A stretch of DNA of 64,000 nucleotides from an uncultured Gemmatimonadota bacterium (GTDB lineage Bacteria > JAAXHH01). The translations under genes were made by a program, and so were the position numbers. Numbering within the stretch: the stretch's first letter is position 1; each line of letters starts with the position of its first letter. The stretch is taken from assembly GCA_951812955.1 (NCBI GenBank), contig OX638340.1:1312001-1376000 (forward strand). Direction: 5' to 3'. Positions 40,391 through 63,193 of the stretch are shown here, piece after piece. The notes below the pieces were generated by a model. The model saw nothing but the letters and a program-made list of their open reading frames with translations. It made no database searches and was not told the DNA's origin.

Positions 40391-40588
40391 ATGAATGTCA
40401 GTAAAGAAGAAAACACCAGACTCACTCCTTCGACAGTCAAACTCAAGCGGTTAATAGGGACCTCGCCTGCTCCTCGAATGTTGACGCCATACGAAATCAA
40501 GTTGCTGCGGCAAGCCGCGAAGGAAGTGGCCGAAGTTACGGAAGAAGTCCTCGCTGAGAAAGACAGTAGTAAGGAAGAAGGATGCTGA
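40391..40588 (+). CDS. small hypothetical ORF (65 aa) overlapping the cas3 start
   Basis: ATG ORF whose stop (GGATGCTGA) overlaps the cas3 ATG by 7 nt. The tail is charged and helical-looking. No recognised motif, and coding status is unproven. Confidence 0.35.
   Translation: MNVSKEENTRLTPSTVKLKRLIGTSPAPRMLTPYEIKLLRQAAKEVAEVTEEVLAEKDSSKEEGC

Positions 40589-43045: not shown

Positions 43046-43062
<17 letters not shown>
40582..43062 (+). CDS. cas3: type I-G (I-U) Cas3 helicase-nuclease with N-terminal helicase and C-terminal HD domain
   Basis: Walker A APTGLGKT, DEAD-like FDEVQLMG, and helicase C IVVATQAIEAGIDLS. HD residues sit at the C-terminus (HLDHV, WHDLGK, FRHELAS, AAHHGK). Confidence 0.9.
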
Positions 43063-46598
<3,536 letters not shown>

Positions 46599-46605
46599 GT
46601 CTCGA

Positions 46606-48240: not shown

Positions 48241-48444
48241 AACGCAGCATTTACAATGACACCTCAGTCATTGGAGTTTGTTATAGAGTTGTTTCAAGGA
48301 AGCTATAACTGTCGATCGATTCTTACATAATCTCGATGTTGTTCATACAGCCTTAAGTCGAGACGTATCCCTGGACCCACGACAGCTAAAACGTACGAAC
48401 ATTTTGCAGAACGAGTAGCCGCGAATACTTCAGCGACTCACCAC

Positions 48445-50157
48445 ATGAACCACATCCACCAACTCACGCTACCAATACCTCCGCCCCCAGTCGACGCGAA
48501 TACGCCATTGGTCCCAGCGCGCATGGTCAACGAATGGGTCTATTGCCCGCGACTGGCCTACCTGGAATGGGTTGAAGGAGAGTGGGCGGAGACGGGAGAC
48601 ACCGCCGAGGGACGGCGTACACACGTAAGGGTCGACGAAGGTGGCGGCCGTCTGCCCGGACCGGAAGAACTGGATGATGAGATGGCCCGCGCCCGGTCCG
48701 TCACGCTTTCGTCGGATCGTCTCGGCGTAATCGCCAAGATAGACGTCGTGGAAGCCGAAGAAGGAATCGTCACGCCCGTGGATTTCAAGAAAGGCAAGCG
48801 TCCCCATGTCGCCACTGGCGCCTACGAGCCCGAACGCGTCCAGATCTGCACGCAGGCCATGATCCTGGAGGACAATGGTTACAGAGTGGAGCGCGGTATG
48901 CTCTGGTACGCCGGGTCGCGTGAGCGCGTCCCGGTGATGCTTGACGATGAACTTCGATCCCTGACCCTGGCGGCAATCAGAGAATTGCGCGTCGCCGCGG
49001 CTGATGGCCGTCGGCCACCGCCTCTGGAAAACAGCCCGAAGTGCCCCCGCTGTGCCCTGGCGGGGATCTGTCTGCCCGACGAAACCAACCTGTTCCGCAA
49101 AGGGACTGCACCACGCCCGCTGAACCCATCGGATGATCCGGCCCTGCCGCTCTACGTACAGGAACCGGGGGCGCGACTGCGAAAGAGCGGTGAGCGCTTG
49201 GTGGTGGAAATCAAGGAAGAATCCGTAGAGGTACCCATAATCGACGTTTCCCAGGTCGCTCTGTTCGGCCCCGTCTCGGTGACCACACCGGCTCTGCACG
49301 CGCTGATGAACGCGGAGATTCCGGTATCGTGGTTTTCCACGGGAGGCTGGTTCCTCGGCCATACAGTAGGAACAGGGCATGGAAACGTGGCCGTTCGCGA
49401 AGCGCAATACCGCGTAGCCTTCGATAAAGGCGCTCGCCTTGCCTTCGCGCGCGATCTCGTGGCGGCTAAGGCGCGTAACGCCCGTACGATGTTGCGTCGC
49501 AACTGGCGCGTCAATATGGACGCGGAAATCAGGGATGAAGCCCTAGTCCGGCTCAGGGGAGTCGTGCGCCGCATCTCCCGCGCCACGGACGAAAGCCAAC
49601 TGCTGGGCCTGGAAGGCGAGGCCGCCGCAGTGTATTTCAACTGCTTCGAGCACATGCTTGCTAAGGATCTGGACGGCGGCGCGACGGGGTTCTCCTTCAC
49701 CAAGCGCAATCGGCGGCCTCCCACGGATCCGGTGAACGCGCTCCTGTCGCTGGCCTACGCTTTGTTGACGCGGGTATTCACTACGACCATCTCGGCGACG
49801 GGGCTCGACCCCTACATGGGCCTCTACCACCATACGCGCCACGGGCGCCCGGCGCTGTCCCTCGATCTAATGGAACCGTTCAGACCTATTGTCGCCGACT
49901 CCTGCGTTATTCAAGCCATCAACAACGGCGAAGTAAAGCTGGCCGATTTCGTGTTCAACGGGGCTGCTTGTTCGCTGAAGCCTGCTGGTCGCAAGTCCTT
50001 CATCGCCGCGTTCGAGCGGCGCATGGAGCAGGAGACCACACATCCGCTTTTCGGCTATCGCGTTTCCATGCGGCGACTTATCGAGGTACAGTCCCGATTG
50101 CTCGCCCGGCATTTTCAGGGAGAGATCGTCTCTTACCCTCATTATCTTCCCCGGTAG
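48445..50157 (+). CDS. cas1: Cas4-Cas1 fusion integrase/nuclease
   Basis: The N-terminal Cas4 part has YCPRLAYLEW and the Cys cluster CPRCALAGICLPDE. The C-terminal Cas1 part has PLYVQEPGARLRK...PTDPVNALLSLAY...GLYH. Confidence 0.9.
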   Translation: MNHIHQLTLPIPPPPVDANTPLVPARMVNEWVYCPRLAYLEWVEGEWAETGDTAEGRRTHVRVDEGGGRLPGPEELDDEMARARSVTLSSDRLGVIAKIDVVEAEEGIVTPVDFKKGKRPHVATGAYEPERVQICTQAMILEDNGYRVERGMLWYAGSRERVPVMLDDELRSLTLAAIRELRVAAADGRRPPPLENSPKCPRCALAGICLPDETNLFRKGTAPRPLNPSDDPALPLYVQEPGARLRKSGERLVVEIKEESVEVPIIDVSQVALFGPVSVTTPALHALMNAEIPVSWFSTGGWFLGHTVGTGHGNVAVREAQYRVAFDKGARLAFARDLVAAKARNARTMLRRNWRVNMDAEIRDEALVRLRGVVRRISRATDESQLLGLEGEAAAVYFNCFEHMLAKDLDGGATGFSFTKRNRRPPTDPVNALLSLAYALLTRVFTTTISATGLDPYMGLYHHTRHGRPALSLDLMEPFRPIVADSCVIQAINNGEVKLADFVFNGAACSLKPAGRKSFIAAFERRMEQETTHPLFGYRVSMRRLIEVQSRLLARHFQGEIVSYPHYLPR

Positions 50158-50162
50158 CGACT

Positions 50163-50456
50163 ATGGCCAACGAACGTCTCTACATCGTCGCCTACGACAT
50201 ATCCGAGCCAAAGCGATGGCGGCGCGTGTACAAGCTGATGAAAGGCTATGGGCACTGGTTGCAGTTGTCGATTTTCCAGTGCAGGCTCACGGCCCGGCGA
50301 CGCGCGGAAATGACCGCTCGTCTGGAGGAATCGATCGATCTGTCGGAGGACCACATTCTGATCGTGGACATGGGTCCCGCGGACAAAGTGGATCCATTGG
50401 TAGAAAGCCTGGGCAAGGCATATGAAGCGCCGACTCGAAAAGCCACCGTCGTGTAG
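50163..50456 (+). CDS. cas2: Cas2 endoribonuclease
   Basis: LYIVAYDISEPKRWRRVYKLMKGYGHWLQLSIFQC is a typical Cas2 fold sequence. 97 aa. Confidence 0.9.
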   Translation: MANERLYIVAYDISEPKRWRRVYKLMKGYGHWLQLSIFQCRLTARRRAEMTARLEESIDLSEDHILIVDMGPADKVDPLVESLGKAYEAPTRKATVV

Positions 50457-50665
50457 CCGTGCCTTTGCCGGGTCCTCCGCGAACGCTCCGGTGGAAGGGA
50501 AATGCCGGGCAGCGCTCGCGTCCTGGTATTTGTTTGTTCTGCATGGAGTTACGAGGCATTGTAACTGATTTCGGGGAGGGCGATTTGAATGTCCGTGAGA
50601 TTTTAGCAGCAGTGCTCGCAAAAGGCCTGACAAGCCTAAGTCTGCCAAAGAGTTGCTAAGGAACT
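50457..50665 (+). promoter_or_regulatory. CRISPR leader
   Basis: Non-coding 209 bp between cas2 and the first repeat. Repeat degeneration at the far end of the array supports this polarity. Confidence 0.6.
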
Positions 50666-53281
50666 ATTTCCGGGGCTGCGCAGCCCCGGCCTCATTGAAG
50701 CGCCGCCATATCGATCCGGATAGAAGGTTGTCCGTTCGATTTCCGGGGCTGCGCAGCCCCGGCCTCATTGAAGCACCATATGCCGGCGCGGTGATTGGGT
50801 ATTTGCGGCACGATTTCCGGGGCTGCGCAGCCCCGGCCTCATTGAAGCATCCGTCATCATAAAACCCCCGTAAATGGCCATAGGGATTTCCGGGGCTGCG
50901 CAGCCCCGGCCTCATTGAAGCCGTCGTCGCGATGGCGGTGTTCGGTGGCAACCTGTGATTTCCGGGGCTGCGCAGCCCCGGCCTCATTGAAGCCACCAGA
51001 ATACCCATGCGGCCGATAACGAGGTGCTGCTTATTTCCGGGGCTGCGCAGCCCCGGCCTCATTGAAGCCGATCCTTCCGCGAAGTGTCCGGCCTGCACCG
51101 CTCCATTTCCGGGGCTGCGCAGCCCCGGCCTCATTGAAGCATGAGTTGACGCTCCGAGATACCCAGCAGCGTCGCGAGATTTCCGGGGCTGCGCAGCCCC
51201 GGCCTCATTGAAGCCGGAAGATGTTGCTCCCCTGGCCGTCGGTGAAGAAGTTATTTCCGGGGCTGCGCAGCCCCGGCCTCATTGAAGCCGGAAGATGTTG
51301 CTCCCCTGGCCGTCGGTGAAGAAGTTATTTCCGGGGCTGCGCAGCCCCGGCCTCATTGAAGCGAGAAGATCTCCCCGGATAACGTGGACGACCCCACCGG
51401 CATTTCCGGGGCTGCGCAGCCCCGGCCTCATTGAAGCCGGTTGGCCTCCGGGTCCGGCTCGGTTTCGTGCGGTTGATTTCCGGGGCTGCGCAGCCCCGGC
51501 CTCATTGAAGCTTGGAAGCCATGATGGCCTTGGTGCCCAGGGCGAGCGCCATTTCCGGGGCTGCGCAGCCCCGGCCTCATTGAAGCTAGGCCTCCTCGCT
51601 GGCGAATCCCATCTTGTACCACTATTTCCGGGGCTGCGCAGCCCCGGCCTCATTGAAGCTCGTACACGTGGGCGGTGGTCAGCACCACCTTGGAACCGGA
51701 TTTCCGGGGCTGCGCAGCCCCGGCCTCATTGAAGCGTCGGTTTCGTCCTCGGTGTCGCGGTGACGACGCTCTATTTCCGGGGCTGCGCAGCCCCGGCCTC
51801 ATTGAAGCATCAAACACACCCTTCAAGCGTAAACATAGGCCCTGGATTTCCGGGGCTGCGCAGCCCCGGCCTCATTGAAGCCCATCAGTGTGGTCGACTG
51901 CTGCCTGCGTGTGCTGGAGAAATTTCCGGGGCTGCGCAGCCCCGGCCTCATTGAAGCCCATCAGTGTGGTCGACTGCTGCCTGCGTGTGCTGGAGAAATT
52001 TCCGGGGCTGCGCAGCCCCGGCCTCATTGAAGCATGCACATCTCGAAGTCACAGGACCAGACACAGGTGACGATTTCCGGGGCTGCGCAGCCCCGGCCTC
52101 ATTGAAGCCACGGAAGGCAGCCAGGGTCGCACCGCTGGCACCCAGATTTCCGGGGCTGCGCAGCCCCGGCCTCATTGAAGCCAAGCAATCGAACGCAAGC
52201 ACAAGCGGACGCTCGACCATTTCCGGGGCTGCGCAGCCCCGGCCTCATTGAAGCTAAGGGTATTGTCCAGGACGATGACCTGAATGAATATATTTCCGGG
52301 GCTGCGCAGCCCCGGCCTCATTGAAGCCTGTGCAAAACGCGCGGTACTTGAAATTGGCCCGTGTCATTTCCGGGGCTGCGCAGCCCCGGCCTCATTGAAG
52401 CGTGATTGATCAATTTCGAGATTAACCGTTATTTCCTCCATTTCCGGGGCTGCGCAGCCCCGGCCTCATTGAAGCAGGAACACGTGGAAGAGGTAGGAGC
52501 AGACGCGAAACCATTTCCGGGGCTGCGCAGCCCCGGCCTCATTGAAGCGAAGCTCCTGTTGAGTCTGTGAACGACTGGACGGGTTAATTTCCGGGGCTGC
52601 GCAGCCCCGGCCTCATTGAAGCGATGCAATCAGAAACCTCCTTCATCGTCGCATCCTGATATTTCCGGGGCTGCGCAGCCCCGGCCTCATTGAAGCGATT
52701 CATCGTTGGCGTTGTCGTCCACCTCCTCGGCGAGGTATTTCCGGGGCTGCGCAGCCCCGGCCTCATTGAAGCCAAGTTGACAGACATAGGAATCCAGCCT
52801 TACGCGTCCACATTTCCGGGGCTGCGCAGCCCCGGCCTCATTGAAGCTCTGAAAAAGACCTGTTGCTCCACCCCATCGAGGACGTATTTCCGGGGCTGCG
52901 CAGCCCCGGCCTCATTGAAGCGCCTTGTCGCGGATAGCCCTTGCCTGCTCCTCCAAAGCCATTTCCGGGGCTGCGCAGCCCCGGCCTCATTGAAGCCTCC
53001 AACACCAGCAACAGCACGGCAGGGTCCCTGGGCATTTCCGGGCTGCGCAGCCCCGGCCTCATTGAAGCGAATCTCCCTCCAGCGGGTTGCAGTCCTTCAG
53101 GTCCTGGGTTTCCGGGGCCGCACGGCCCCGGCCTCATTGAAGCGAGATCCCCCCGGACCCTGGTAAGGCGTCGGCGGGCAGTGTTTCCGGGGCCGCTCGG
53201 CCCCGGCCTCATTGAAGCTCGGATCCTAACTACGACCTGTTCATTATCAATTGCGTTTCCGGGCTGCGCGGCGAGGATCGT
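50666..53281 (+). CRISPR. CRISPR array: 35 repeats of 36 nt plus one degenerate terminal repeat, and 35 spacers of 36-40 nt
   Basis: The repeat is ATTTCCGGGGCTGCGCAGCCCCGGCCTCATTGAAGC, with an internal 20-nt perfect palindrome and an ATTGAAGC 3' end. I located every repeat by hand: first at 50666-50701, last intact at 53183-53218, degenerate remnant from 53255. Confidence 0.98.
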
Positions 53282-53340: not shown

Positions 53341-56300
53341 ATGAATATCAGGAAACACCGTAACACTCATCATCCTCGACGCATTTCGCAAAGGAATTGT
53401 GCCTTGAGGTTTCTTGTCGTTCCCGTCGTCCTCTCGATCATTATCCTTCCGTCGTGCGGCAGGGAAAGCCCCACGGGACCGCCGCAGGCGGCCAGCATCA
53501 GGATATCGCCGGCCGAGGCCGTGCTGGACGCCATTGGCGCGACCGTGCAGCTCACTGCGTCGGTCCGGGACGGGAACGATCGGGAGGTACCGGACGCTGC
53601 CGTGACGTGGACCAGCGGTAACACCGAAGTGGCCAGCGTGACTGACGAGGGCCTGGTCACGGCCCGGAAGAACGGTTCCGCAGTCATCACGGCCGTTTCA
53701 GGGCAATTCCAAGCGAATGCCGCAGTCACGGTATCGCAGGCGGTCGCTAACATCGAGGTTGCGCCCGCCAGCGTGTCGCTGACGAAGACGGACGGGGCTC
53801 TGCGGGTCGACGCAGTGGTGAAAGACAGGAAAGGCAACCTGGTGGCGAACGCGCTGCTCGTCTGGACAAGCAGCGATCCCTTCGTCGTCTCAGTGAACGC
53901 CCTGGGAGTCCTCGAGGCGCGGTCGAACGGAAACGCCCGGATCACCGTGTCTTCAGGGGACGTATCGACAAGCGTGGAAGTCACGGTCTCGGGTTTCGGA
54001 CCGGATGCGCTGGACCGCGTCGCCCTGGTCGCGCTGTTCAACGAAACGGGCGGACCGGGATGGACGCTCGCCACAAACTGGTCGAGCGACTCGCCCCTGG
54101 CCGAGTGGCACGGGGTGGCGACCGATGCCGAAGGAAGGGTGATCGAATTGTTGCTCGACGGGAACGGCCTGAAGGGCGCGATCCCGGAGGAACTGGTCCG
54201 GCTGACAAGGCTCCGAGCTCTTTCCCTCGCACGCAATCAGTTGACAGGAAGCATACCCCCCGGAATCGGACGACTCGCCAGACTGGAGGTGCTGGAGGTT
54301 TCCTACAACCGTTTGACGGGAAGCATACCCCCCGAATTCGGACGACTCACCAGACTCAGGGAACTCGGCGCCAACGGCAACAACTTCTCGCCCGGGCCAT
54401 TGCCCCGGGCTATGACCAATCTCGACAACCTCGAGTTCCTGGGACTCGCGGGAACATCGCTGTGCGCGCCGCTCGACGCAGATTTCCAGGCCTGGCTCGG
54501 CGCGATAGACGACGTTGAAGTGGACAACTGCGAGGACATGGAGCGGAGCGCGCTGATCGCGTTGTACAACGCGACGGACGGAGGAAACTGGACCGAACGG
54601 GACAATTGGCTCACCGGCGTGCCCCTGAGCGCCTGGCACGGAGTTGCGACAAATGACCAGGGCCAGGTAACGGGCTTGGATCTGGCAGACAACAACCTGA
54701 GGGGAACACTGCCGACCCGACTGAGCGATCTCCGGTCTCTGAGCGGTTTGGACCTGTCCAACAACTCCGGGCTGACGGGACCGCTGCCCGTGTCGCTTGG
54801 CAGTCTCAGTCTAACGGCCCTCAAACTAGGCGGAACGGATCTATGCGCGCCGCTGGACCCCGCTTATCAGGCCTGGCTGGCCGCCATCGGGGACATACGG
54901 GTCGCTGGCTGTCCCGCCGACATCGCCCCCGACCGGGTGGCGTTGACCGCGCTATACGGCGAAACGGGCGGTGCGTACTGGAAGGAGTCCGCCAACTGGC
55001 TCGGCGAAGCGCCATTGCGAGACTGGTACGGCGTCGAGACCGACGCCGAAGGGCGTGTGACCTCCATTGACCTGAGGTACAATAACCTGAGGGGGCGGCT
55101 GCCTCCGGAATTGGCGCTGATCGACAGGCTGGAAGCGTTGCGTCTTGCCGGCAACGGCCTGACGGGGCAGATACCGCCAGAACTCGCGCGCCTCGACCGA
55201 CTCTCTGCGTTGGATCTTTCGGTGAACCTGCTGACGGGCTCCATTCCACCGGAACTGGGCCGACTGGCAGACCTCTCCGTCCTTGATCTCTCCGCCAACG
55301 GATTGACCGGGTCCGTTCCACCCCAACTGGGACGACTCGACCGACTATCCGTCCTCGACCTCCGACTCAACCGGTTACACGGCCCCGTTCCGTCCGAACT
55401 GGGGAACCTCCGCAGCCTCGGGCGACTGGCACTCTCCTCCAACGAGTTGACCGGCCGCGTGCCGCCGGAACTGGGATTATTGGCAAACCTCTCCGTCCTC
55501 GACCTCAGACTCAATCGGTTACACGGCCCCGTACCACCCGAACTGGGACGACTCGCAAACCTCAAGGAACTGAATCTCGCCAGGAACGGCTTTACGGGCC
55601 CCGTTCCACCCGAACTGGGACGGCTCCCAAACCTCGAGGATCTGGAACTCTCCACCAACGAGTTGACGGGCCCCGTTCCGCCCGAACTGGGACGACTCGC
55701 AAACCTCAAGGAACTGAATCTCGCCACCAACGGCCTGACGGGCCCCGTTCCGCCCGAACTGGGACGACTCGCAAACCTCGTCACGCTGAGCCTGGCGTCG
55801 AATCAGCTGACGGGATCGGTCCCGCCCGAACTGGGACGACTCGCAAATCTCGTCACGCTGAGTCTTTCCGGTAACGCCGCGCTGTCGGGGACGTTGCCGC
55901 GCGCGTTGCTCAACCTCGACCTGGCCTCCCTGCTCCTGGCCGGTACGCGCCTCTGCGCGTCCCGGGACGTGGAGACTCAGGCTTGGTTGCGGGATATCGA
56001 TGAAAGGCGCGTTTCCGACTGCGGCGATTCCGTCCCGCTTATTATGTCTGCGTATCTCACACAGGCGGTGCAGTCCCTCGAAAATCCAGTGCCGCTGGTT
56101 GCCGGCAAGCCCGCGCTCCTGCGCGTATTCTTAACGAACGGCGGCATGGCCGACGCCAAACGGCCGCCGGTACGCGCTACATTCTACCGGAACGACCTTC
56201 CAGTGCACACGACCGAGATATCGGGCGGAGACGATAGACTGCCGGACAGTCCGGAGGAAGGACAACTCGCGGCTTCATCCAACGCCGCGATACCGGCCGA

Positions 56301-57492
56301 AGTCGTTCGGCCGGGCCTGGAAATGGTGATAGAAATCGATCCCGGCAGCATACCGGATTCCGCTTTGGACATCGGTCGCCGCCTGCCGTCTACCGGACGG
56401 TTGGCTTTGGAGGTGGTGGAGGTGCCGCCCCTCCATCTTACCCTGGTCCCGTTTCTGTGGTCGTCGAATCCGGACCGGACGCTCGCGGATTACGCCTCGG
56501 GCCTGTCGTCCGATGACGAACTGTTCAGGATGACCCGGGAAACGTTGCCGGTTGGTGATTTCCATCTGACCGTGCGCGAGCCCGTCTGGACCTCGGTGGT
56601 ATCCGAGGCGAAGAACACCATATCGATCCTGGTTGAGGTCTATGTGGTTCGCATCCTGGACGGCGCCCGGGGACATTATATGGGTATCCTCCCTGCCGGA
56701 GAACGGGTGGGCGTTGCCGCCATCCCGGGATACTTCGGTGTGGCGGCGCTGAACGGACGCATCATTGCCCATGAACTCGGACACAACATGAACCTGGGGC
56801 ACGCGCCGTGCGGCGACCCGGCCGGGGTGGACCCCGACTACCCCTACTTCGACGGGACTACCGGCGCATGGGGCTACGACGTCCTGTCGGAATCATTGGT
56901 GTCGCCGCAAAACTTCGACTTGATGAGTTACTGCCTCCCCAATGGGATCAGTGACTTCCACTTCGTCAAGGCGCTGATTTACCGGCGGTCCGAGGAAACG
57001 CCCGTTCCAGCAGCGCGCGCCGCTTCCGCGACCAACCTGCTGCTATGGGGCGAAGTGAACGAGTTTACGGAAACCGTCCTCCATCCTGCCTTCGTGGTCG
57101 ACGCCCCGCCCGCCCTGCCGGAGACCGGCGGTCCGTATCGCATCACCGGTGAAGACGGAGCAGGGAACACGCTGTTCGCGCTGTCCTTCGGCGCGGTGGA
57201 AGTCGCGGACGGGGCCGGGAGTGTTTTCGCGTTCGTCCTTCCCGTCCAGGAGGACTGGCTCGATCGATTGCATCGGATCGCGTTATCCGGCCCGGACGGG
57301 GTGAAGACGGTAGATCGAAGAGGAGGGTCGGCCGCCGCGATCATGTTAGACCGGACGACCGGAACGGTCCGGGGCATCCTCCGAGACTGGCCCGACCAGG
57401 GCGGCTCTCAGCCGTTCGCGCGGCGCGTGCTGCCGGACGGTGATTTCGAAGTCCTGGTCAGCCACGGCATCCCAGATTCGAATCCCCGGTAA
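53341..57492 (+). CDS. large lipoprotein: two Big_2-like Ig domains, three capped plant-type LRR modules, and a C-terminal metzincin-like zinc protease region
   Basis: Lipobox ILPSCG, with an alternative TTG start at 53404 that gives MRFLVVPVVLSIIILPSCG. The Big_2-like segments include VTWTSGNTEVASV... There are many 24-aa LxxLxLxxNxLTGxVPPELGRLxN repeats, each module preceded by an ALxALYxxTxGxxWxxxxNWxxxxPLxxWxGV cap. The zinc motif is HELGHNMNLGH. Confidence 0.8.
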   Translation: MNIRKHRNTHHPRRISQRNCALRFLVVPVVLSIIILPSCGRESPTGPPQAASIRISPAEAVLDAIGATVQLTASVRDGNDREVPDAAVTWTSGNTEVASVTDEGLVTARKNGSAVITAVSGQFQANAAVTVSQAVANIEVAPASVSLTKTDGALRVDAVVKDRKGNLVANALLVWTSSDPFVVSVNALGVLEARSNGNARITVSSGDVSTSVEVTVSGFGPDALDRVALVALFNETGGPGWTLATNWSSDSPLAEWHGVATDAEGRVIELLLDGNGLKGAIPEELVRLTRLRALSLARNQLTGSIPPGIGRLARLEVLEVSYNRLTGSIPPEFGRLTRLRELGANGNNFSPGPLPRAMTNLDNLEFLGLAGTSLCAPLDADFQAWLGAIDDVEVDNCEDMERSALIALYNATDGGNWTERDNWLTGVPLSAWHGVATNDQGQVTGLDLADNNLRGTLPTRLSDLRSLSGLDLSNNSGLTGPLPVSLGSLSLTALKLGGTDLCAPLDPAYQAWLAAIGDIRVAGCPADIAPDRVALTALYGETGGAYWKESANWLGEAPLRDWYGVETDAEGRVTSIDLRYNNLRGRLPPELALIDRLEALRLAGNGLTGQIPPELARLDRLSALDLSVNLLTGSIPPELGRLADLSVLDLSANGLTGSVPPQLGRLDRLSVLDLRLNRLHGPVPSELGNLRSLGRLALSSNELTGRVPPELGLLANLSVLDLRLNRLHGPVPPELGRLANLKELNLARNGFTGPVPPELGRLPNLEDLELSTNELTGPVPPELGRLANLKELNLATNGLTGPVPPELGRLANLVTLSLASNQLTGSVPPELGRLANLVTLSLSGNAALSGTLPRALLNLDLASLLLAGTRLCASRDVETQAWLRDIDERRVSDCGDSVPLIMSAYLTQAVQSLENPVPLVAGKPALLRVFLTNGGMADAKRPPVRATFYRNDLPVHTTEISGGDDRLPDSPEEGQLAASSNAAIPAEVVRPGLEMVIEIDPGSIPDSALDIGRRLPSTGRLALEVVEVPPLHLTLVPFLWSSNPDRTLADYASGLSSDDELFRMTRETLPVGDFHLTVREPVWTSVVSEAKNTISILVEVYVVRILDGARGHYMGILPAGERVGVAAIPGYFGVAALNGRIIAHELGHNMNLGHAPCGDPAGVDPDYPYFDGTTGAWGYDVLSESLVSPQNFDLMSYCLPNGISDFHFVKALIYRRSEETPVPAARAASATNLLLWGEVNEFTETVLHPAFVVDAPPALPETGGPYRITGEDGAGNTLFALSFGAVEVADGAGSVFAFVLPVQEDWLDRLHRIALSGPDGVKTVDRRGGSAAAIMLDRTTGTVRGILRDWPDQGGSQPFARRVLPDGDFEVLVSHGIPDSNPR
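55080..55900 (+). repeat. 72-bp (24-codon) tandem LRR coding repeats, some near-identical at DNA level
   Basis: For example 55536-55607 versus 55680-55751 differ at only a few positions. The periodicity is in-frame within the large CDS. Confidence 0.85.
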
Positions 57493-57666: not shown

Positions 57667-58626
57667 ATGAATCTTGTTCTTACCCTGGCTTTGACCGCTA
57701 TCTGCCTGGGGGGCGAGACTTTCTTCCACGCGCCGCGGGCCTATTTTGGAGATCAGGCTTTCTCGTTCCACCTCTCCGATGGGCGGGTGGCGAATGGCCA
57801 CACCCTTTTACTGGAATGCATACCTGAAGGTCCCGGCGTTGAAGCTGGTCGCGTGGCTGACCTGACCGTTTCGACGGGCACCCGGATTCATCGCCTGTAC
57901 CCTCATCCCACCGAAGTCGACAGTGTCCTGTTCACCCTGATCGGCATTCCCTATGGCACGGCGCCGGGTCCGGATACCCTGCACGTGGAGTGGACCGAAA
58001 GCGACCGGATCTTCGACCGGGAACTGCCCTTCAGCGTGGTAGCCGGTCCTTACCGGTCGGAGCAAATCCGCGGCGTGCCGCAGAATCGGGTTACGCCTTC
58101 GGCGGAGGACTTCCGCCGCATCGCGAGGGAACGGAAGATAATCGCCTCGGCGTACGAAGCGGTCCGGGATACGGCCATGATGGCGGATACGTTCAGTTAT
58201 CCCGTGGAGAAAAAAACGATTACCAGCCCCTATGGGACCCGAAGGGTATTCAATGGACAGCTTCGAAGCTTTCACGGCGGCCTCGACCTGCGGGCCTACG
58301 AAGGAACGCCCCTATACGCCGCGCAGTCCGGCGTGGTCAAGCTGGCGCAGAACCTGTTCTTTTCAGGCAACCATGTCCTGATCGAACACGGCATGGGCAT
58401 CCACACCGGGTATTCTCACATGAGCAGGCTGTACGTGAAAACCGGTGACGTGGTTACCCAGGGACAGTTATTGGGGCTGTCCGGATCCACAGGCCGGGTG
58501 ACCGCCGCGCACCTGCACTGGACGGTTAACGTAAACGGCGTGGGGGTCAGCCCGTTGCAGTTTACCGAGATCCTTTCCATGCTGTACGGGAAACCCGTTG
58601 AGGTACGTAACCGGAATGACGGCTAG
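57667..58626 (+). CDS. M23 family metallopeptidase
   Basis: HGGLDL, then GNHVLIEHG and SGSTGRVTAAHLHW (the HxxxD / HxH M23 signatures). Confidence 0.85.
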   Translation: MNLVLTLALTAICLGGETFFHAPRAYFGDQAFSFHLSDGRVANGHTLLLECIPEGPGVEAGRVADLTVSTGTRIHRLYPHPTEVDSVLFTLIGIPYGTAPGPDTLHVEWTESDRIFDRELPFSVVAGPYRSEQIRGVPQNRVTPSAEDFRRIARERKIIASAYEAVRDTAMMADTFSYPVEKKTITSPYGTRRVFNGQLRSFHGGLDLRAYEGTPLYAAQSGVVKLAQNLFFSGNHVLIEHGMGIHTGYSHMSRLYVKTGDVVTQGQLLGLSGSTGRVTAAHLHWTVNVNGVGVSPLQFTEILSMLYGKPVEVRNRNDG

Positions 58627-58637
58627 ACGGAGTTGCC

Positions 58638-60392
58638 ATGCGCCCTGTGATCGTCCTGATGTTCCCAGTTACGTTTCTAGCGCTCACCGTCGCTTTCGCC
58701 GTGGAAATACCCTCCAATACGTCTGAACGCGCCGATTCTGAACGCGTCAATTCCGTCGGCGTGACACTGCCTCCTGACGCCGCGCCACCCGCTCTGCAGC
58801 AACTGCATACCTTCGAACTGAACAACCGGTACATGGACCGGGCCACTTCTTCCTACCAGAAGTCCTTCGGGTTCGCCCTGACGAACGAACCACTTACCCG
58901 GGTCGATCGTAACTTCAAACTCATCCCCGCCGCCGCAACCCACTGGGAAGTGACCGAAGACGGGCACACCTGGGTTTTCCACCTCAGAAAAGACATGGTG
59001 TTCGGCGATGGCAAACCCGTTACTGCTTACGACTACGCGGACACTTTCCGGCGGTGGGCGGATCCGGACATCGGATTCGATTTCGAATGGTATTACCGGT
59101 CGATCAGGAATTGGGGCGCCGTCGTCGCACGGGAGATGCCCCTGGATTCGCTGGGCGTCAAGGCGCTGGACCGGCACGCCATTGCCTTCACCACCACCCG
59201 GCCGGCGCCCTTCGCGCCACATCTGCTCAACTACAGCTGGGTGACGCCGACACACCAGTTCGAGAAGTACGGGGCAGCGTGGTCCACCAAACCCGAAACC
59301 CACATCGGGTATGGCCCCTACCGGCTCAAGGAGTGGACCATCAACCACCGGATTGTCCTGGAGCCGAATCCTACGTATCCTGGGCCCAGCACGCCTTACC
59401 TGGAAAAGATAATCGCCCGTCTTTACAACGCGGCGGCCCAGCCACCCTTCCTCGCCTCATACGAATCGGGCGAGGTCGACTACGTTCTGCTGAACAACCC
59501 GGCCGAGATCAACCGGGTCCGGTCCGACCCGGTACTGCGAAGCCAACTGAATACCTACACCAATTTCACCACGTACTATCTCTTCATGGATACCCGGGTT
59601 CCGCCTTTCGACGACCTGCGCGTTCGCCAGGCCATCAGCCACGCCATCGACCAGCCGGCCATCATGAAATCCGCCCTGAAAGACATCGCGGTTTCGGCCG
59701 TATCCATGATGCCGTCGGGATTTCCGGCCGCCAGTCCCGAAACGCTGGGACACATACAACAATACGACCTGGAAAAGGCACGCCGTCTGCTCGCGGAAGC
59801 GGGATATCCCAATGGAAGGGGATTCCCCCCAATGGCCATGTGGCTGCGAGGCGAAGCCTACCTTAGAAAGGTGGCCGCCGAGGCCATTCAGGCCATGCTT
59901 AAGCAGAATCTGAATATTGAGATCGAGGTCCTGAACGTGGAAAGGAAAGTCTACACGGAAGCCTTGAACGCCAAAGAGATTCCATTTTCTATGCTTGCAT
60001 ATGGTTGGGATTACCTGGACCCCAGCAACCTGCTCAACTTGTGGCTGTCCCGGGGCCGACACCCCTGGCGCAACGAGCAGTTCGAGGAACTCGTGGAACG
60101 GGCCAACCACCTGGTGGGAGATCCCGAACGGCGCACCCGACTCTACCAGGAAGCAGAAGAGATCCTGGTCCGGGACGTGGGCGGTGTCTTCCTCTGGCAC
60201 GACCTGGTCAACGAGATGTGGCGTCCATACGTCCGCGGTGACGCGCTCGAACCGAACGAATCGGGATACAGGGCGTGGCGCGGGAACCAGATGCTGAACC
60301 TGATGACTACGATTTACATTACAGAGGATGTAACCCGGGAAACGACGGCACGGAAGCGCGGCGGTCCGTGGAGTTGGCTGACTGGTCGATGA
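58638..60392 (+). CDS. ABC transporter substrate-binding protein, family 5 (peptide/nickel/opine type), copy 1
   Basis: 584 aa with a signal peptide and a family-5 layout (YRLKEWTINHRIVLEPNPTY...). About 70% identical by eye to the next gene. Confidence 0.8.
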   Translation: MRPVIVLMFPVTFLALTVAFAVEIPSNTSERADSERVNSVGVTLPPDAAPPALQQLHTFELNNRYMDRATSSYQKSFGFALTNEPLTRVDRNFKLIPAAATHWEVTEDGHTWVFHLRKDMVFGDGKPVTAYDYADTFRRWADPDIGFDFEWYYRSIRNWGAVVAREMPLDSLGVKALDRHAIAFTTTRPAPFAPHLLNYSWVTPTHQFEKYGAAWSTKPETHIGYGPYRLKEWTINHRIVLEPNPTYPGPSTPYLEKIIARLYNAAAQPPFLASYESGEVDYVLLNNPAEINRVRSDPVLRSQLNTYTNFTTYYLFMDTRVPPFDDLRVRQAISHAIDQPAIMKSALKDIAVSAVSMMPSGFPAASPETLGHIQQYDLEKARRLLAEAGYPNGRGFPPMAMWLRGEAYLRKVAAEAIQAMLKQNLNIEIEVLNVERKVYTEALNAKEIPFSMLAYGWDYLDPSNLLNLWLSRGRHPWRNEQFEELVERANHLVGDPERRTRLYQEAEEILVRDVGGVFLWHDLVNEMWRPYVRGDALEPNESGYRAWRGNQMLNLMTTIYITEDVTRETTARKRGGPWSWLTGR

Positions 60393-60435
60393 AAGCGGAA
60401 GCGTCACGCAGCAACAGTCTGATGGGTCCACACTC

Positions 60436-62277
60436 ATGCCAATGCAACCTGACAAACGAAACCGGAATATCCTCGAAGCGGTAGCGTCCCTGCCTCGCGC
60501 AACGGCGATCCTGCTCGGCGCAGCGGCGATCCTCCTTGCCACCATGCTGGGCGCATCAGCGCTCGGCATCGGTGCCTCGGCGCTCGGCCTCACCACCGAC
60601 GGCCCATCCGGCCAGGGGCAGCCTGCCCAGGTCAACTCCGTGGGCGTCACTCTACCTGCGGACGCCGCACCGCCGGAACACCAGCATCTACGCACATTCG
60701 AGTTAAACAACCGGTTCATGGACCGGGCCACTTCCTCCTACCAGAAGATCTTCGGTTTCGCCCTGACGAACGAGCCGTTGACACGGGTCGACCGGGATTT
60801 CAACCTGCTTCCCGCCGCCGCGACACACTGGGAAGTGACCGAAGACGGCCAGACATGGATTTTCCATCTGCAGCGGGACCTGGTTTTTGGCGACGGCCGG
60901 CCCGTCACGGCCTACGACTACTTGTCTTCGTTCCGACGCTGGGCCGATCCGAAAACCGGTTTCGATTTCGAATGGTACTACCGGCCCATCAAGAACTGGG
61001 GCGAGGTCGTGGACGGCCGTATGCCCCTGGATTCCCTGGGCGTCGAAGCCCTGGACCGGTATACGATCGCTTTCACCACGACCCAGCCGACGCCTTACAC
61101 GCCGGAACTGCTGAACTACAGTTGGGTGACCCCTACCCACCTGTACGAGAAGTACGGTCCGGCCTGGTCGACCCGGCCCGAAACCCACATGGGCAACGGT
61201 CCGTTCCGGCTCAAGGAATGGACGATTAACGACCGCATCGTCCTCGAGCCCAGTCCGACGTACCGGGGGCCCAACAAGCCCTACCTGGAACGCATCACGG
61301 CGCAGCTCTTCAACGCCGCCGCGCAGCCGCCCTACCTCGCCGCTTACGAGGCGGGCGAAGTCGACTACATCGTGCTGAGCAACCAGGCCGAGATAAACCG
61401 GGTCAATTCGATTCCTGATTTGAAGGATCACCTGAACACCTACGTGGATTTCCAGACTTTCTATCTGATGATGGATACCCACAATCCCCCCTTCAACGAT
61501 TTGAGGGTACGCCAGGCCTTCAGCCATGCCGTCGACCAGGCCTCGCTTATGAAATCCGCCCTGCGGGACATTGCGTTGCCGGCTTCCGCCATGTCGCCAC
61601 CGGGGTTCCCAGCGGCCAACCCCGAAGCGCTGGCGTCCTTCCAGGCATACGACCCGGACCTCGCGCGCAGACTCCTTGCGGAAGCGGGTTTCCCGGACGG
61701 AAAGGGATTCCCGGCCGTGAACTTGTGGCTGCGGGGAGAACCCATCGTGATCAACACGGCCGCCGAGGCGGTCCAGGCCATGTTGAAACAAAGCCTGAAC
61801 ATCGAAGTAGGCGTACGAAACGTGGAAAGGAAGGTGTTTACGGAAACGATGAACGCCAAGGAACTCACGCTGGCGCTCATCCCCTACCGTTACGACTATG
61901 TCGACGCCAGCAACCTGCTCACGCTGTGGCTGTCGAATGGACGCCATTCCTGGTACAATGAACGGTTCGAAGAACTGGTACTCAGGGCAAACGTGCTGGT
62001 GGGAGATCCGGTCCGGCGGATCGAGCTATACCAGGAAGCGGAGGAGATACTCGTCCGTGACGTAGGCGGCGTGTTCCTGTGGCACACCCTGATCAATGAA
62101 ATGTGGCGGCCCTACGTACGAGGTGCAGCGATTGAGACGAACAGGTGGGGATACAGGGCATGGCGGGGCAACCAGATGTTGAACCTGATGCCGACCCTGT
62201 ACATATCGGATGAAGTCCTGGATACGGCCGTTGAGCAGAAATCCACCGGCTTCTGGGACTGGCTGACCACGAGGTAG
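60436..62277 (+). CDS. ABC transporter substrate-binding protein, family 5, copy 2
   Basis: 613 aa. A paralog of 58638..60392 with a longer N-terminal TM/signal region. Confidence 0.8.
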   Translation: MPMQPDKRNRNILEAVASLPRATAILLGAAAILLATMLGASALGIGASALGLTTDGPSGQGQPAQVNSVGVTLPADAAPPEHQHLRTFELNNRFMDRATSSYQKIFGFALTNEPLTRVDRDFNLLPAAATHWEVTEDGQTWIFHLQRDLVFGDGRPVTAYDYLSSFRRWADPKTGFDFEWYYRPIKNWGEVVDGRMPLDSLGVEALDRYTIAFTTTQPTPYTPELLNYSWVTPTHLYEKYGPAWSTRPETHMGNGPFRLKEWTINDRIVLEPSPTYRGPNKPYLERITAQLFNAAAQPPYLAAYEAGEVDYIVLSNQAEINRVNSIPDLKDHLNTYVDFQTFYLMMDTHNPPFNDLRVRQAFSHAVDQASLMKSALRDIALPASAMSPPGFPAANPEALASFQAYDPDLARRLLAEAGFPDGKGFPAVNLWLRGEPIVINTAAEAVQAMLKQSLNIEVGVRNVERKVFTETMNAKELTLALIPYRYDYVDASNLLTLWLSNGRHSWYNERFEELVLRANVLVGDPVRRIELYQEAEEILVRDVGGVFLWHTLINEMWRPYVRGAAIETNRWGYRAWRGNQMLNLMPTLYISDEVLDTAVEQKSTGFWDWLTTR

Positions 62278-62380
62278 GTCCCGGCTGTGCGTCCTCACCG
62301 AACACCCGGCGTACGTACTCACCGAACGCCTTGAAACGATTCCCCAGGACGCTTTCTCACCGCATCCATGTTCCAGCTTC

Positions 62381-63055
62381 CTACGCCGCGGCCTCCGTCA
62401 CGATGCGTCCGTCGAAGAGGCGGATGATCCGGTGGGCGTGATCGGCCAGAACCTGGTCGTGGGTCACCATGATGATGGTCGTGCCCGCCTCGTTGAGGCC
62501 GTTGAGCAGTTCCATGACCTCCGAACCGTTGGCCGAGTCCAGGTTACCCGTCGGCTCATCCGCCAGGATCAGCTTGGGATTGCCGATGACCGCCCGCGCC
62601 ACGGCCACGCGCTGCTGCTGGCCGCCGGAAAGCTGCTGCGGGAAGTGATTACGCCGGTGGGGGATCTGCATATGCTCCATCGCCGCATCCACCCGTTCCT
62701 TGCGCTCCTGCTTTGACGTGCCCAGGTAGATCAGCGGAAGCTCGATGTTCTCGTACACGGTCAGTTCGTCGATCAGGTTGAAGCTCTGGAACACGAAGCC
62801 GATGTTGTTCTTGCGCAGATTGGCTCTTTGCCGCTCGGAGTGGCCGGACACTTCCTGGTCCAGGAAATGGTATTCCCCGCCCGTGGGATTGTCGAGGAGG
62901 CCGAGGATGTTGAGCAAGGTGGACTTGCCGCAGCCCGAGGGTCCCATGACCGCCACGAACTCGCCCTGGTCCACGGCCATGCTCACGTCGTTCAACGCCG
63001 TCGTCTCCACCTCTTCGGTCGCATAGAGTTTCTGGAGATGCTCTGTCCGTATCAT
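62381..63055 (-). CDS. ABC transporter ATP-binding protein (MacB/LolD-type)
   Basis: Walker A GPSGCGKST, signature LSGGQQQRVAVARA, and Walker B LILADEPTGNLD. Confidence 0.9.
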   Translation of the reverse strand: MIRTEHLQKLYATEEVETTALNDVSMAVDQGEFVAVMGPSGCGKSTLLNILGLLDNPTGGEYHFLDQEVSGHSERQRANLRKNNIGFVFQSFNLIDELTVYENIELPLIYLGTSKQERKERVDAAMEHMQIPHRRNHFPQQLSGGQQQRVAVARAVIGNPKLILADEPTGNLDSANGSEVMELLNGLNEAGTTIIMVTHDQVLADHAHRIIRLFDGRIVTEAAA

Positions 63056-63193
63056 GTTGCGCTCCCGTAATGAAATGAGGCTCTGGGCGGACCCGGCGCG
63101 AGGCTTGGTGCGCCGCTGCGCGCCGCCCTGTCCTGTCGAGAAAACCTTACCATAAGCGTCCGTACCCGCTGCTATAAGCGTCCGTACCCGCTG

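What the first reader, a model, noticed from the sequence alone, without database searches (positions are those of the whole stretch)
53341..57492. 1383-aa lipoprotein combining Big_2 domains, three plant-type capped LRR modules and a metzincin-like protease
The LRR units are the 24-residue LxxLxLxxNxLTGxIPxELGxLxxL type. Each module has an N-cap of the form ...W.GV..D..GRV..L.L, which resembles plant receptor-kinase ectodomains rather than the typical bacterial LRRs. Each module ends with a conserved L-C-A-P-L-D...QAWL...C element. The C-terminal third carries HELGHNMNLGH (HExxHxxxxxH). The gene abuts the CRISPR trailer and precedes an M23 peptidase. It may be a surface recognition-plus-protease device, for example for prey, host or polymer interaction.
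Basis: partly seen in the sequence, partly recalled or inferred. Interest (0 to 1): 0.5.

Follow-up and report, generated by a model that had tools for sequence, protein, structure and literature searches.

The report
LRR-guided surface zinc protease
This gene encodes a large, probably lipid-anchored bacterial surface protein that joins three plant-style leucine-rich-repeat binding modules to a zinc protease related to the mucin-cutting enzyme StcE. It belongs to a large, uncharacterised family found mainly in marine and sponge-associated Gemmatimonadota-like bacteria.

Summary
ORF 53341-57492 (+) is intact. It has two Big_2 domains and three separately capped blocks of 24-residue LRRs. Its 487-residue C-terminal module carries HELGHNMNLGH.

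The LRR units are of the plant-specific class. By sequence and by predicted fold, their best solved relatives are plant receptor-kinase ectodomains. The caps are only partly plant-like. The N-cap's only significant solved relatives are two bacterial LRR proteins. The Cys-Cys C-cap has no solved relative.

The C-terminal module is a metzincin-fold protease in a StcE-like layout: an Ig-like domain, a catalytic domain and a beta-sandwich. It passes the Pfam M66 threshold only over the zinc helix. Its core is as close to ADAM/adamalysin enzymes as to StcE.

The true start is probably TTG 53404, giving 1362 aa, as in the orthologues.

CRISPR adjacency is incidental, because orthologous loci lack it. 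The M23/SBP_bac_5 neighbours are conserved only among direct orthologues.

The protease module has about 2,100 cluster representatives at E<=1e-30. It is always C-terminal, behind variable binding modules.

Most likely function: an extracytoplasmic protease whose substrate is chosen by the LRR modules. The substrate is unknown. I rate it a new variant of known kinds, of moderate interest.

The parts
53341..57492 (+). Whole ORF as listed (1383 codons from ATG, including the stop codon)
53404..53457 (+). Probable true start (TTG) and signal peptide MRFLVVPVVLSIIILPS, ending in the lipobox Cys (Cys39 in ATG numbering). AAGGA lies 8 nt upstream, at 53391-53395.
   Evidence: Orthologue N-termini; DNA; a promoter-like -10 box overlapping the ATG
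53491..53730 (+). Big_2 domain 1 (aa 51-130)
   Evidence: Pfam PF02368, 60.3 bits, 2 stretches
53755..53991 (+). Big_2/Big_1-like domain 2 (about aa 139-217)
   Evidence: Second Big_2 stretch and Big_1 155-217
54007..54531 (+). LRR module 1: N-cap aa 223-266, four 24-residue LRRs aa 267-363, C-cap aa 364-397 (Cys375/Cys397)
54538..54912 (+). LRR module 2: N-cap aa 400-442, two LRRs aa 443-490, C-cap aa 491-524 (Cys502/Cys524)
54928..56022 (+). LRR module 3: N-cap aa 530-572, twelve LRRs aa 573-860 with consensus LxxLxLxxNxLTGxVPPELGRLxx, C-cap aa 861-894 (Cys872/Cys894)
   Evidence: AF2 model pLDDT 93.4 with beta-beta-helix units. Plant LRR-RK matches.
55232..55852 (+). 72-nt tandem DNA repeats (one LRR each) inside module 3
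   Evidence: TRF, period 72/144/216, 72-83% matches
56047..56418 (+). Ig-like beta-sandwich that opens the C-terminal protease module (model residues 7-130)
   Evidence: AF2 model; it aligns with StcE together with the catalytic domain
56431..57003 (+). Metzincin-fold catalytic domain (model residues 135-325)
56770..56802 (+). Zinc-binding motif HELGHNMNLGH (H1144, E1145, H1148, H1154)
   Evidence: invariant in alignment A1; kept in 118/120 homologues
56917..56934 (+). DLMSYC: candidate Met-turn (M1195 at least 90% conserved, Y1197 and C1198 invariant). C1198 probably pairs with C1157.
   Evidence: Conservation in A1; followed by a helix in the model; geometry not checked
57034..57462 (+). C-terminal beta-sandwich domain (model residues 336-478)
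   Evidence: AF2 model
57667..58626 (+). Neighbour: M23 peptidase. Conserved next to direct orthologues only.
58638..62277 (+). Neighbours: two SBP_bac_5 solute-binding proteins. Conserved next to direct orthologues only.
50666..53218 (+). CRISPR array (35 repeats, last three degenerate). Adjacent to the gene but not part of the feature.
   Evidence: absent from orthologous loci

Best explanation
The gene encodes an exported, probably lipid-anchored, multi-module protein of a diderm bacterium from the Gemmatimonadota/Latescibacterota group.

Proposed mechanism, from the N-terminus:
- After signal-peptide cleavage at the lipobox Cys, two Big_2 Ig-like domains act as a stalk.
- Three independently capped solenoids of plant-specific-class LRRs (4, 2 and 12 repeats) form the ligand-binding part. 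Each is probably closed by a disulfide in its C-cap.
- A constant C-terminal module carries out zinc-dependent proteolysis. It consists of an Ig-like domain, a metzincin catalytic domain (H1144/E1145/H1148/H1154) and a beta-sandwich.

The LRR modules most likely select or hold the protein or peptide substrate for the protease. LRR domains play the same role in bacterial LRR-enzyme fusions.

Shown here: the ORF, the domain architecture, the fold assignments, the conservation of catalytic residues and caps, and the size and modularity of the family.

Inferred: lipidation, surface exposure, the disulfides, catalytic activity, substrate selection by the LRRs, and the identity of the substrate. A host or environmental extracellular protein is plausible, possibly a glycoprotein, given the StcE-like layout and the sponge-derived relatives.
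For: ORF and motifs:
- ORF and motifs are confirmed.
- Pfam finds Big_2, LRR models and M66 above threshold.
- Catalytic HExxHxxxLxH is present in 118/120 homologues, and lipobox-bearing N-termini are common.
- H, E, H, H and C1198 are invariant; C1157 and M1195 are at least 90% conserved.

Protease module:
- AF2 model has pLDDT 84.5.
- Foldseek's top hit is StcE at E 3e-13, spanning several domains.
- hhalign to StcE gives E 2.4e-5 and includes the downstream WGYD/WGWD motif.

LRR module:
- AF2 model has pLDDT 93.4 with beta-beta-helix units.
- PDB sequence and fold neighbours are all plant LRR receptor ectodomains, which bind ligands on the concave face.
- Caps recur 393 and 334 times in the family, with fixed Cys spacing.

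Family:
- The protease module is always C-terminal (150 best of 8,169 hits; 2,101 at E<=1e-30).
- It sits behind variable N-terminal modules: PS-LRR, another LRR class, Big_12, or none.
- Precedent for an LRR acting as the targeting domain of an enzyme: XopAC and XopL (PMC4617103).
Against: - There is no experimental evidence for activity, lipidation or localisation.
- The lipobox is non-canonical (Pro at -2; many paralogues have Thr at -1).
- The Pfam M66 match covers only 52 of 306 profile positions.
- The canonical Gly of HExxHxxGxxH is Asn here.
- Among orthologues, LRR variability follows the ordinary scaffold/variable pattern. There is no special hypervariability.
- No conserved partner gene points to a substrate.
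Confidence: 0.6

Rival explanations
1. Nutrient-scavenging operon. The protease digests extracellular protein, and the downstream M23 peptidase and two oligopeptide-type solute-binding proteins process and import the products. The four genes would then form one functional unit.
For: - All four genes are on the same strand, with short gaps of 174, 11 and 43 nt.
- The order M23 - SBP_bac_5 x2 - ABC - MFP is conserved in the three orthologous loci L001-L003.
- No terminator-like site was found between the protease gene and the M23 gene.
Against: - None of the 79 paralogue loci has an M23 or SBP_bac_5 neighbour.
- Clustering of neighbours found no conserved partner.
- Synteny among genomes whose orthologues are 77-91% identical is expected by descent alone.
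Confidence: 0.2
2. The protein is mainly an adhesin or host-mimicking 'eukaryotic-like' LRR protein. It binds host (sponge) molecules to avoid digestion or to colonise. The protease domain is accessory, latent or inactive.
For: - LRR proteins are counted among the eukaryotic-like proteins of sponge-associated Latescibacterota MAGs (PMC12993501).
- Relatives come largely from MAGs with sponge-derived names.
- Big_2 plus LRR is a typical adhesin layout.
Against: - The zinc ligands and the catalytic Glu are kept in 118/120 homologues.
- The protease module is the constant part of the family, while the LRRs are replaceable. That argues the protease is the core function.
Confidence: 0.15
3. The LRR region is a recent horizontal acquisition of a plant or algal receptor ectodomain.
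For: Best sequence and fold matches in the PDB are plant LRR receptor kinases at 30-38% identity.
Against: - GC content of the LRR region (64.4%) equals that of the rest of the gene (63.9%) and is near the window mean of 59.8%.
- The N-cap's significant solved relatives are bacterial (4eco, 4ecn). The plant-type cap cysteines are absent and Pfam LRRNT_2 is not hit.
- The C-cap is unlike anything solved.
- Hundreds of bacterial paralogues carry the same cassettes.
Confidence: 0.05
4. The gene is an accessory or defence gene functionally tied to the adjacent CRISPR-Cas locus.
For: The gene starts 122-185 nt after the last CRISPR repeat.
Against: - Orthologous loci have a PhyH gene upstream and no CRISPR-Cas.
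- There is no PADLOC hit.
- The protein has an export signal.
Confidence: 0.02

Closest known systems
StcE (peptidase family M66), the mucinase of enterohaemorrhagic E. coli
   Same: - Nearly the same zinc motif: HEVGHNYGLGH in StcE against HELGHNMNLGH here.
- Both have the downstream WG(W/Y)D motif.
- Both have an Ig-like domain ahead of the catalytic domain.
- StcE is annotated as a lipoprotein in pO157.
   Different: - Identity is only about 15%. hhalign covers 76 columns and Pfam covers 52 of 306 positions.
- The catalytic domain here is about 190 residues and aligns equally well with ADAM/adamalysin cores.
- A Met 41 residues after the third His is conserved here, whereas M66 is reported to lack the conserved Met (PMC7518263).
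- StcE has no LRRs.
- Some relatives of this family score better against Reprolysin models than against M66.
Plant LRR receptor-kinase ectodomains (GSO1, MIK2, PEPR1, FLS2, BRI1, TDR)
   Same: - Same 24-residue plant-specific LRR unit, LxxLxLxxNxLTGxIPxELGxLxx.
- Same beta-beta-helix repeat structure, with TM-scores normalised to the query up to 0.90 and 30-38% identity.
- The W-x-G-V...V-x-L-x-L strand of the N-cap aligns, as does the first Cys of the C-cap (LCAS against LCGS).
   Different: - There are no N-cap cysteines and no Pfam LRRNT_2 hit.
- The first half of the N-cap is of a bacterial type.
- The C-cap has a helix (FQAWL) and a second Cys 22 residues on, with no solved relative.
- There are three capped modules in one chain.
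- There is no transmembrane helix or kinase. The LRRs are fused to a protease instead.
Bacterial LRR proteins of PDB entries 4eco and 4ecn
   Same: They are the only significant solved matches to the whole N-cap (D-x-x-A-L-x-x-[IL]-[YW]-x-A-x-x-G-x-x-W ... N-W ... W ... G-V ... G-R-V-T-x-L-x-L), at E 1.9e-4 and 1.1e-3.
   Different: They are not among the best 60 sequence matches or the best 50 fold matches to the LRR repeats. I did not examine their other domains.
Bacterial LRR-enzyme fusions (XopAC = LRR + Fic; XopL = LRR + E3 ligase)
   Same: - An LRR domain serves as the target-recognition part of a catalytic protein (PMC4617103).
- The best NCBIfam matches for the LRR region are XopAC, XopAE and XopL, all far below their cut-offs.
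   Different: Those proteins are type III effectors that act inside host cells. Their enzymes are not proteases, and they have no signal peptide, lipobox, Big_2 domains or disulfide caps.
ADAM/adamalysin (M12B) and other metzincin catalytic domains
   Same: - The profile against the PDB hits adamalysins over the strand plus zinc helix.
- The HExxHxxxxxH motif is shared.
   Different: Sequence matches are marginal (E 0.005 and worse). There is no disintegrin or pro-domain context, and the accessory domains differ.

Membership tests
Plant-specific (PS) class of LRRs | 24-residue unit with consensus LxxLxLxxNxL(T/S)GxIPxxLGxLxx | tested here: met
   All 18 units listed. Module 3 consensus is LxxLxLxxNxLTGxVPPELGRLxx, with scaffold positions nearly invariant among 30 orthologues.
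Plant-specific (PS) class of LRRs | beta-beta-3(10) structural unit (definition in PMC5976695) | tested here: met
   The AF2 model (pLDDT 93.4) shows two strands and a short helix per repeat. This is a prediction, not a solved structure.
Plant-specific (PS) class of LRRs | Closest relatives are plant LRR ectodomains | tested here: met
   phmmer against the PDB: the top 40 are all plant LRR receptor kinases or receptor-like proteins (5e-162 to 6e-75). SHOC-2 and Leptospira LRR proteins are far weaker. The Foldseek top 50 are all plant.
Plant LRR ectodomain caps (Pfam LRRNT_2 N-cap; Cys-pair C-cap) | N-cap matching LRRNT_2, with its cysteine pair | tested here: not met
   No Pfam hit for the three caps at E<=10. 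The cap positions that hold Cys in plants are not Cys here. The cap profile matches plant kinases only at E 0.16-0.5 over half its length, but matches bacterial 4eco/4ecn significantly.
Plant LRR ectodomain caps (Pfam LRRNT_2 N-cap; Cys-pair C-cap) | C-cap of the plant type | tested here: not met
   Only the 'GT-x-LC[AG]S' start aligns with GSO1. The C-cap profile has no significant PDB match (best E 0.56, spurious).
Peptidase family M66 (StcE-like) | Pfam PF10462 at or above the gathering score | tested here: met
   26.5-28.3 bits against a cut-off of 20.6, but only profile positions 193-244 of 306.
Peptidase family M66 (StcE-like) | Zinc motif HE[VL]GHNxxLGH plus downstream WG[WY]D | tested here: met
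   hhalign of family profile A1 against StcE: 75.6% probability, E 2.4e-5, with both motifs aligned.
Peptidase family M66 (StcE-like) | Overall fold and domain order of StcE | tested here: inconclusive
   [not shown]
Peptidase family M66 (StcE-like) | Cleavage of O-glycosylated mucin-type substrates | not testable with these tools
   This needs enzyme assays.
Metzincins (clan MA, subclan M) | HExxHxxGxxH/D with three zinc ligands and a catalytic Glu | tested here: met
   H1144, E1145, H1148 and H1154 are invariant. The canonical Gly at motif position 8 is Asn here.
Metzincins (clan MA, subclan M) | Met-turn under the zinc site | tested here: inconclusive
   M1195 is at least 90% conserved in DLMSYC and is followed by a helix. 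Its position relative to the metal site could not be measured.
Metzincins (clan MA, subclan M) | Metzincin catalytic fold | tested here: met
   [not shown]
Bacterial lipoproteins | Signal peptide ending in a lipobox with invariant Cys | tested here: met
   MRFLVVPVVLSIIILPS-C; orthologues have LSSC, LASC, LPSC and paralogues have LTTC, LATC. The conserved post-Cys motif is G-[KR]-[DE]-S-P-T-x-P. The -2 and -1 residues are partly non-canonical, and no dedicated predictor was available.
Bacterial lipoproteins | Acylation and membrane anchoring | not testable with these tools
   This needs biochemical labelling or proteomics.
Anti-phage defence / CRISPR-associated genes | Match to a defence-system model, or conserved linkage to cas genes | tested here: not met
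   No PADLOC hit. Orthologous loci lack CRISPR-Cas.

The most novel reading that the evidence does not exclude
The family is a repertoire of 'addressable' surface proteases used by marine, largely sponge-associated bacteria. One constant metzincin warhead is combined with exchangeable, independently capped plant-class LRR cassettes. Several paralogues occur per genome, and each is tuned to recognise and cut a different host protein, for example an extracellular-matrix or mucin-like glycoprotein or an immune receptor. That would make it a symbiosis factor that mirrors, on the bacterial side, the LRR receptor repertoires of eukaryotic hosts.
Probability: 0.2. Interest if true: 0.7.

Novelty: new variant of a known kind. 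Interest (0 to 1): 0.4.

Why it matters
If the model is right, this is one member of a very large, unstudied family of bacterial extracellular proteases. The family has about 2,100 clusters at 50% identity with E<=1e-30. Substrate choice would be delegated to plant-class LRR solenoids.

That would offer three things:
- A concrete molecular handle on how abundant uncultured Gemmatimonadota/Latescibacterota-type symbionts interact with sponge tissue or with other extracellular proteins.
- New LRR cap types for structural study.
- Possibly new glycoprotein- or sequence-specific proteases useful as tools, as StcE has become.

As it stands, this is a sound annotation of an uncharacterised multi-domain protein. 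It is not a new principle.

Tried and rejected
- **Caps against Pfam.** I scanned the three N-caps and three C-caps alone at E<=10 and found nothing.
- **Protease module against PDB sequences.** phmmer with the single sequence found nothing. The profile gave only marginal adamalysin hits over the zinc helix.
- **C-cap profile against the PDB.** It returned only spurious matches.
- **PADLOC.** No hit.
- **Functional link to CRISPR.** Rejected, because orthologous loci lack it.
- **Family-wide link to M23/SBP_bac_5.** Rejected.
- **Conserved partner gene across 82 loci.** The search found only another giant Ig-like/cadherin-like/PD40 protein in 14 loci, plus spurious high-GC ORFs.
- **Hypervariable concave-face residues among orthologues.** I found only the ordinary LRR pattern.
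- **Literature.** No paper combines 'peptidase M66' with 'leucine-rich repeat'. The Palauibacterales paper does not mention LRRs or peptidases.
- **Disulfide and Met-turn geometry.** These could not be checked, because model coordinates are not exposed by the tools.

Full report
**1. The observation**

The window holds one uninterrupted ORF on the + strand, from ATG 53341 to the stop at 57492, 1383 codons.

Pfam reports two Big_2 stretches (best at aa 51-130) and many LRR models. It also reports Peptidase_M66 at 26.5 bits against a cut-off of 20.6, over aa 1139-1189. That stretch contains HELGHNMNLGH.

Reading the translation gives three blocks of 24-residue repeats. Each block is preceded by a cap of the form ...ALxALYxxTxGxxW...NWL...PLxxWxGVxTDxxGRVxxLxL. 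Each block is closed by LxxLxLxGTxLCAPxDxxFQAWLxxIxxxxVxxC.

| Module | N-cap (aa) | LRRs (aa) | C-cap (aa) | Cys pair |
|---|---|---|---|---|
| 1 | 223-266 | 267-363 | 364-397 | 375/397 |
| 2 | 400-442 | 443-490 | 491-524 | 502/524 |
| 3 | 530-572 | 573-860 | 861-894 | 872/894 |

Each cysteine pair is 22 residues apart.

The caps are not chance motifs. In the 120 best homologues I count 393 N-caps and 334 C-caps. The Cys spacing is 22 in 271 of the C-caps and 23 in 56.

The downstream gene is an M23 peptidase. The CRISPR array of 35 repeats ends at 53218 with three degenerate repeats.

One detail changes. About 45 orthologues (77-91% identical) are 1362 aa long and begin MRFLVVPVVLSIIILPSCG. 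That start corresponds to TTG 53404, which has AAGGA 8 nt upstream. The only promoter-like site places its -10 box on top of the ATG at 53341. The real product is probably 1362 aa.

**2. The LRR part**

The unit consensus in module 3 is LxxLxLxxNxLTGxVPPELGRLxx. Among 30 orthologues the scaffold positions are almost invariant and the x positions vary. This is the 'plant specific' class in the standard eight-class scheme, whose structural unit is beta-beta-3(10) (PMC5976695).

A phmmer search with module 3 against all PDB sequences puts plant receptor kinases first. GSO1 scores 5e-162, followed by MIK2, PEPR1, FLS2, BRI1 and others. Human SHOC-2 (about 1e-56) and Leptospira LRR proteins are far behind.

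An AlphaFold model of module 3 has pLDDT 93.4 and shows two strands and a short helix per repeat. Its 50 best Foldseek matches in the PDB are all plant LRR ectodomains, with TM-scores normalised to the query up to 0.90 and 30-38% identity. The 'plant-type LRR' claim holds for the repeats.

The caps are a different matter.
- **Pfam.** The three N-caps and three C-caps alone hit nothing in Pfam at E<=10, including LRRNT_2.
- **N-cap profile (52 sequences).** It finds two bacterial LRR proteins over its whole length: 4eco at E 1.9e-4 and 4ecn at 1.1e-3. Plant kinases match only the second half (W-x-G-V...V-x-L-x-L), at non-significant E values of 0.16-0.5. The plant cap cysteines are absent.
- **C-cap profile.** It has no significant PDB match. 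Only its first residues (GT-x-LCAS) align with the plant GN-x-x-LCGS.

The modules are therefore plant-class repeats inside caps that are bacterial (N) or so far family-specific (C).

GC content of the LRR region (64.4%) matches the rest of the gene (63.9%). The window mean is 59.8%. Nothing suggests a recent transfer from a eukaryote.

**3. The protease part**

I aligned aa 897-1383 with 23 homologous C-terminal regions (alignment A1, 36-84% identity).
- Invariant: H1144, E1145, H1148, H1154, Y1197 and C1198.
- At least 90% conserved: C1157 and M1195.

The AlphaFold model has pLDDT 84.5 and pTM 0.87. It shows an Ig-like beta-sandwich, an alpha/beta catalytic domain and a second beta-sandwich.

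Fold and profile comparisons:
- Foldseek against the PDB puts StcE (3ujz) first at E 3e-13, with the alignment running through several domains.
- I took the StcE sequence from pO157. Against it, the family profile gives an hhalign E-value of 2.4e-5 and aligns both the zinc motif and the downstream WGYD/WGWD motif.

That test fails, so the fold is present.

Membership of M66 proper is less clear.
- The Pfam match covers 52 of 306 positions.
- The catalytic domain is small.
- Several LRR-less relatives score better against Reprolysin models.
- The family keeps a Met 41 residues after the third His, in DLMSYC. M66 is reported to lack the conserved Met (PMC7518263).

I file it as an M66-related metzincin, not as an M66 member in the strict sense.

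**4. Family and context**

118 of the 120 best homologues carry the C-terminal module with HExxHxxxLxH. Most have a lipobox-type N-terminus.

A profile search of 1.84 billion cluster representatives gives the following counts:

| E-value threshold | Hits |
|---|---|
| <=1e-3 | 8,169 |
| <=1e-10 | 5,501 |
| <=1e-30 | 2,101 |

In all 150 hits listed, the module lies at the C-terminus of proteins of 510-2,731 aa.

In species-representative genomes the relatives are mostly MAGs of Gemmatimonadota, Longimicrobiales or Candidatus Palauibacter. Several have sponge-derived names (P. irciniicola, P. ramosifaciens, P. rhopaloidicola). The closest, at 81% identity, is a MAG labelled Candidatus Latescibacterota. 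[quoted passage not shown] LRR proteins are listed among the eukaryotic-like proteins of sponge Latescibacterota (PMC12993501). That the window itself comes from a sponge symbiont is an inference from these relatives.

Several genomes hold more than one copy, some in tandem.

Of 73 long ORFs in the fetched loci, 64 combine capped plant-class LRRs with the protease module. Others combine the protease module with different N-terminal parts:
- L062: Big_2 plus a different LRR class.
- L071: nine Big_12 domains.
- L047, L079 and L080 (bioreactor and soil-type MAGs): no recognisable binding domain.

The protease module is the constant element and the binding modules are exchangeable.

**5. Neighbours**

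Upstream lies a type I CRISPR-Cas locus: a Cas3 with a C-terminal HD domain, a GSU0053-family protein and a Cas4-Cas1 fusion. In two orthologous loci the upstream gene is PhyH and there is no CRISPR-Cas. The downstream genes (M23, two SBP_bac_5, ABC ATPase, membrane-fusion protein, lactonase, LpxB) are conserved there.

Across 82 loci, M23 and SBP_bac_5 neighbours occur only in the three orthologous loci. Clustering all neighbours finds no conserved partner. The one exception is another giant Ig-like/cadherin-like/PD40 protein, present in 14 loci. PADLOC finds nothing.

The CRISPR adjacency is incidental. The M23/SBP linkage is local synteny, which leaves a nutritional coupling possible but unsupported.

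**6. How it most likely works**

Shown:
- the export signal and lipobox Cys
- the Big_2 pair
- three capped plant-class LRR solenoids
- a metzincin-fold module with all catalytic residues conserved
- modular evolution around a constant protease

Inferred:
- The protein is acylated at Cys39 and tethered outside the cytoplasm.
- The paired cysteines form disulfides in the caps and across the active-site/Met-turn region.
- The LRR solenoids bind a protein or extended peptide on their concave face, as their plant structural relatives do.
- This binding presents or retains the substrate for the protease.

I give this mechanism a confidence of 0.6. The rivals are listed separately: a nutritional operon (0.2), mainly an adhesin (0.15), recent plant transfer (0.05) and a CRISPR-linked function (0.02).

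**7. Novelty and verdict**

Every component belongs to a known kind, and close homologues are already in the databases as 'Ig-like domain-containing protein' or 'hypothetical protein'.

Three things are not described in the literature I could search:
- the combination of plant-class LRR cassettes with an M66-related metzincin
- the distinct disulfide C-cap
- the size of this family

I rate it a new variant of a known kind, with interest 0.4.

Noticed in passing
window 40582-53218: A type I CRISPR-Cas locus. It has a Cas3 with a C-terminal HD domain (40582-43059), a GSU0053-family protein (45642-46595) and a Cas4-Cas1 fusion (48445-50154). Two large ORFs have no Pfam hit (42998-45649, 884 aa; 46606-48237, 544 aa). 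The array has 35 repeats of 36 nt (ATTTCCGGGGCTGCGCAGCCCCGGCCTCATTGAAGC) with 36-40 nt spacers, and the last three repeats carry 4 mismatches each. From memory, the gene set looks like subtype I-G (formerly I-U); I did not test this.
   Followed up: partly
window 53455-53484 (Cys39 and following residues); homologues P0046-P0120: The residues after the lipobox Cys are strongly conserved even between paralogues that are 40-50% identical. The motif is C-G-[KR]-[DE]-S-P-T-x-P, often followed by a proline-rich stretch. It could be a lipoprotein sorting or surface-export signal.
   Followed up: partly
C-termini of homologues (P0001-P0261); window 57481-57489: 36 of 120 homologues end in a conserved ...GIPxxxxW with Trp as the very last residue. 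The orthologue group of the window ends ...GIPDSNPR. The meaning is unknown.
   Followed up: no
window 55232-55852: The LRRs of module 3 are also tandem repeats at the DNA level (period 72 nt, up to 83% matches). One orthologue (P0007) is 24 aa longer than the 1362-aa orthologues, the length of one LRR unit. This hints at gain or loss of a repeat unit, but the position of the extra residues was not checked.
   Followed up: partly
P0066 and P0119 (2348 and 2320 aa): Two family members carry two complete HExxHxxxLxH protease modules in one chain. They have few LRR caps and no lipobox-like N-terminus.
   Followed up: no
L054 8772-12362 and 13 other loci: A second kind of giant exported protein recurs next to family members in 14 of 82 loci. 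It has Big_2, Big_9, cadherin-like, He_PIG and CARDB domains plus a PD40 beta-propeller.
   Followed up: partly
L047, L079, L080 versus the sponge/marine loci: The few relatives from a bioreactor MAG and from soil-type Gemmatimonadaceae MAGs have the protease module without any LRR cassette. Almost all the marine or sponge-named MAG copies have LRRs. The sample is small and has no habitat metadata.
   Followed up: partly
window 57667-63952; L001, L002: A block is conserved between the window and two complete orthologous genomes: M23 peptidase, two SBP_bac_5 proteins, then on the opposite strand an ABC ATPase and a membrane-fusion protein. In the orthologous loci a lactonase and LpxB follow.
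   Followed up: yes
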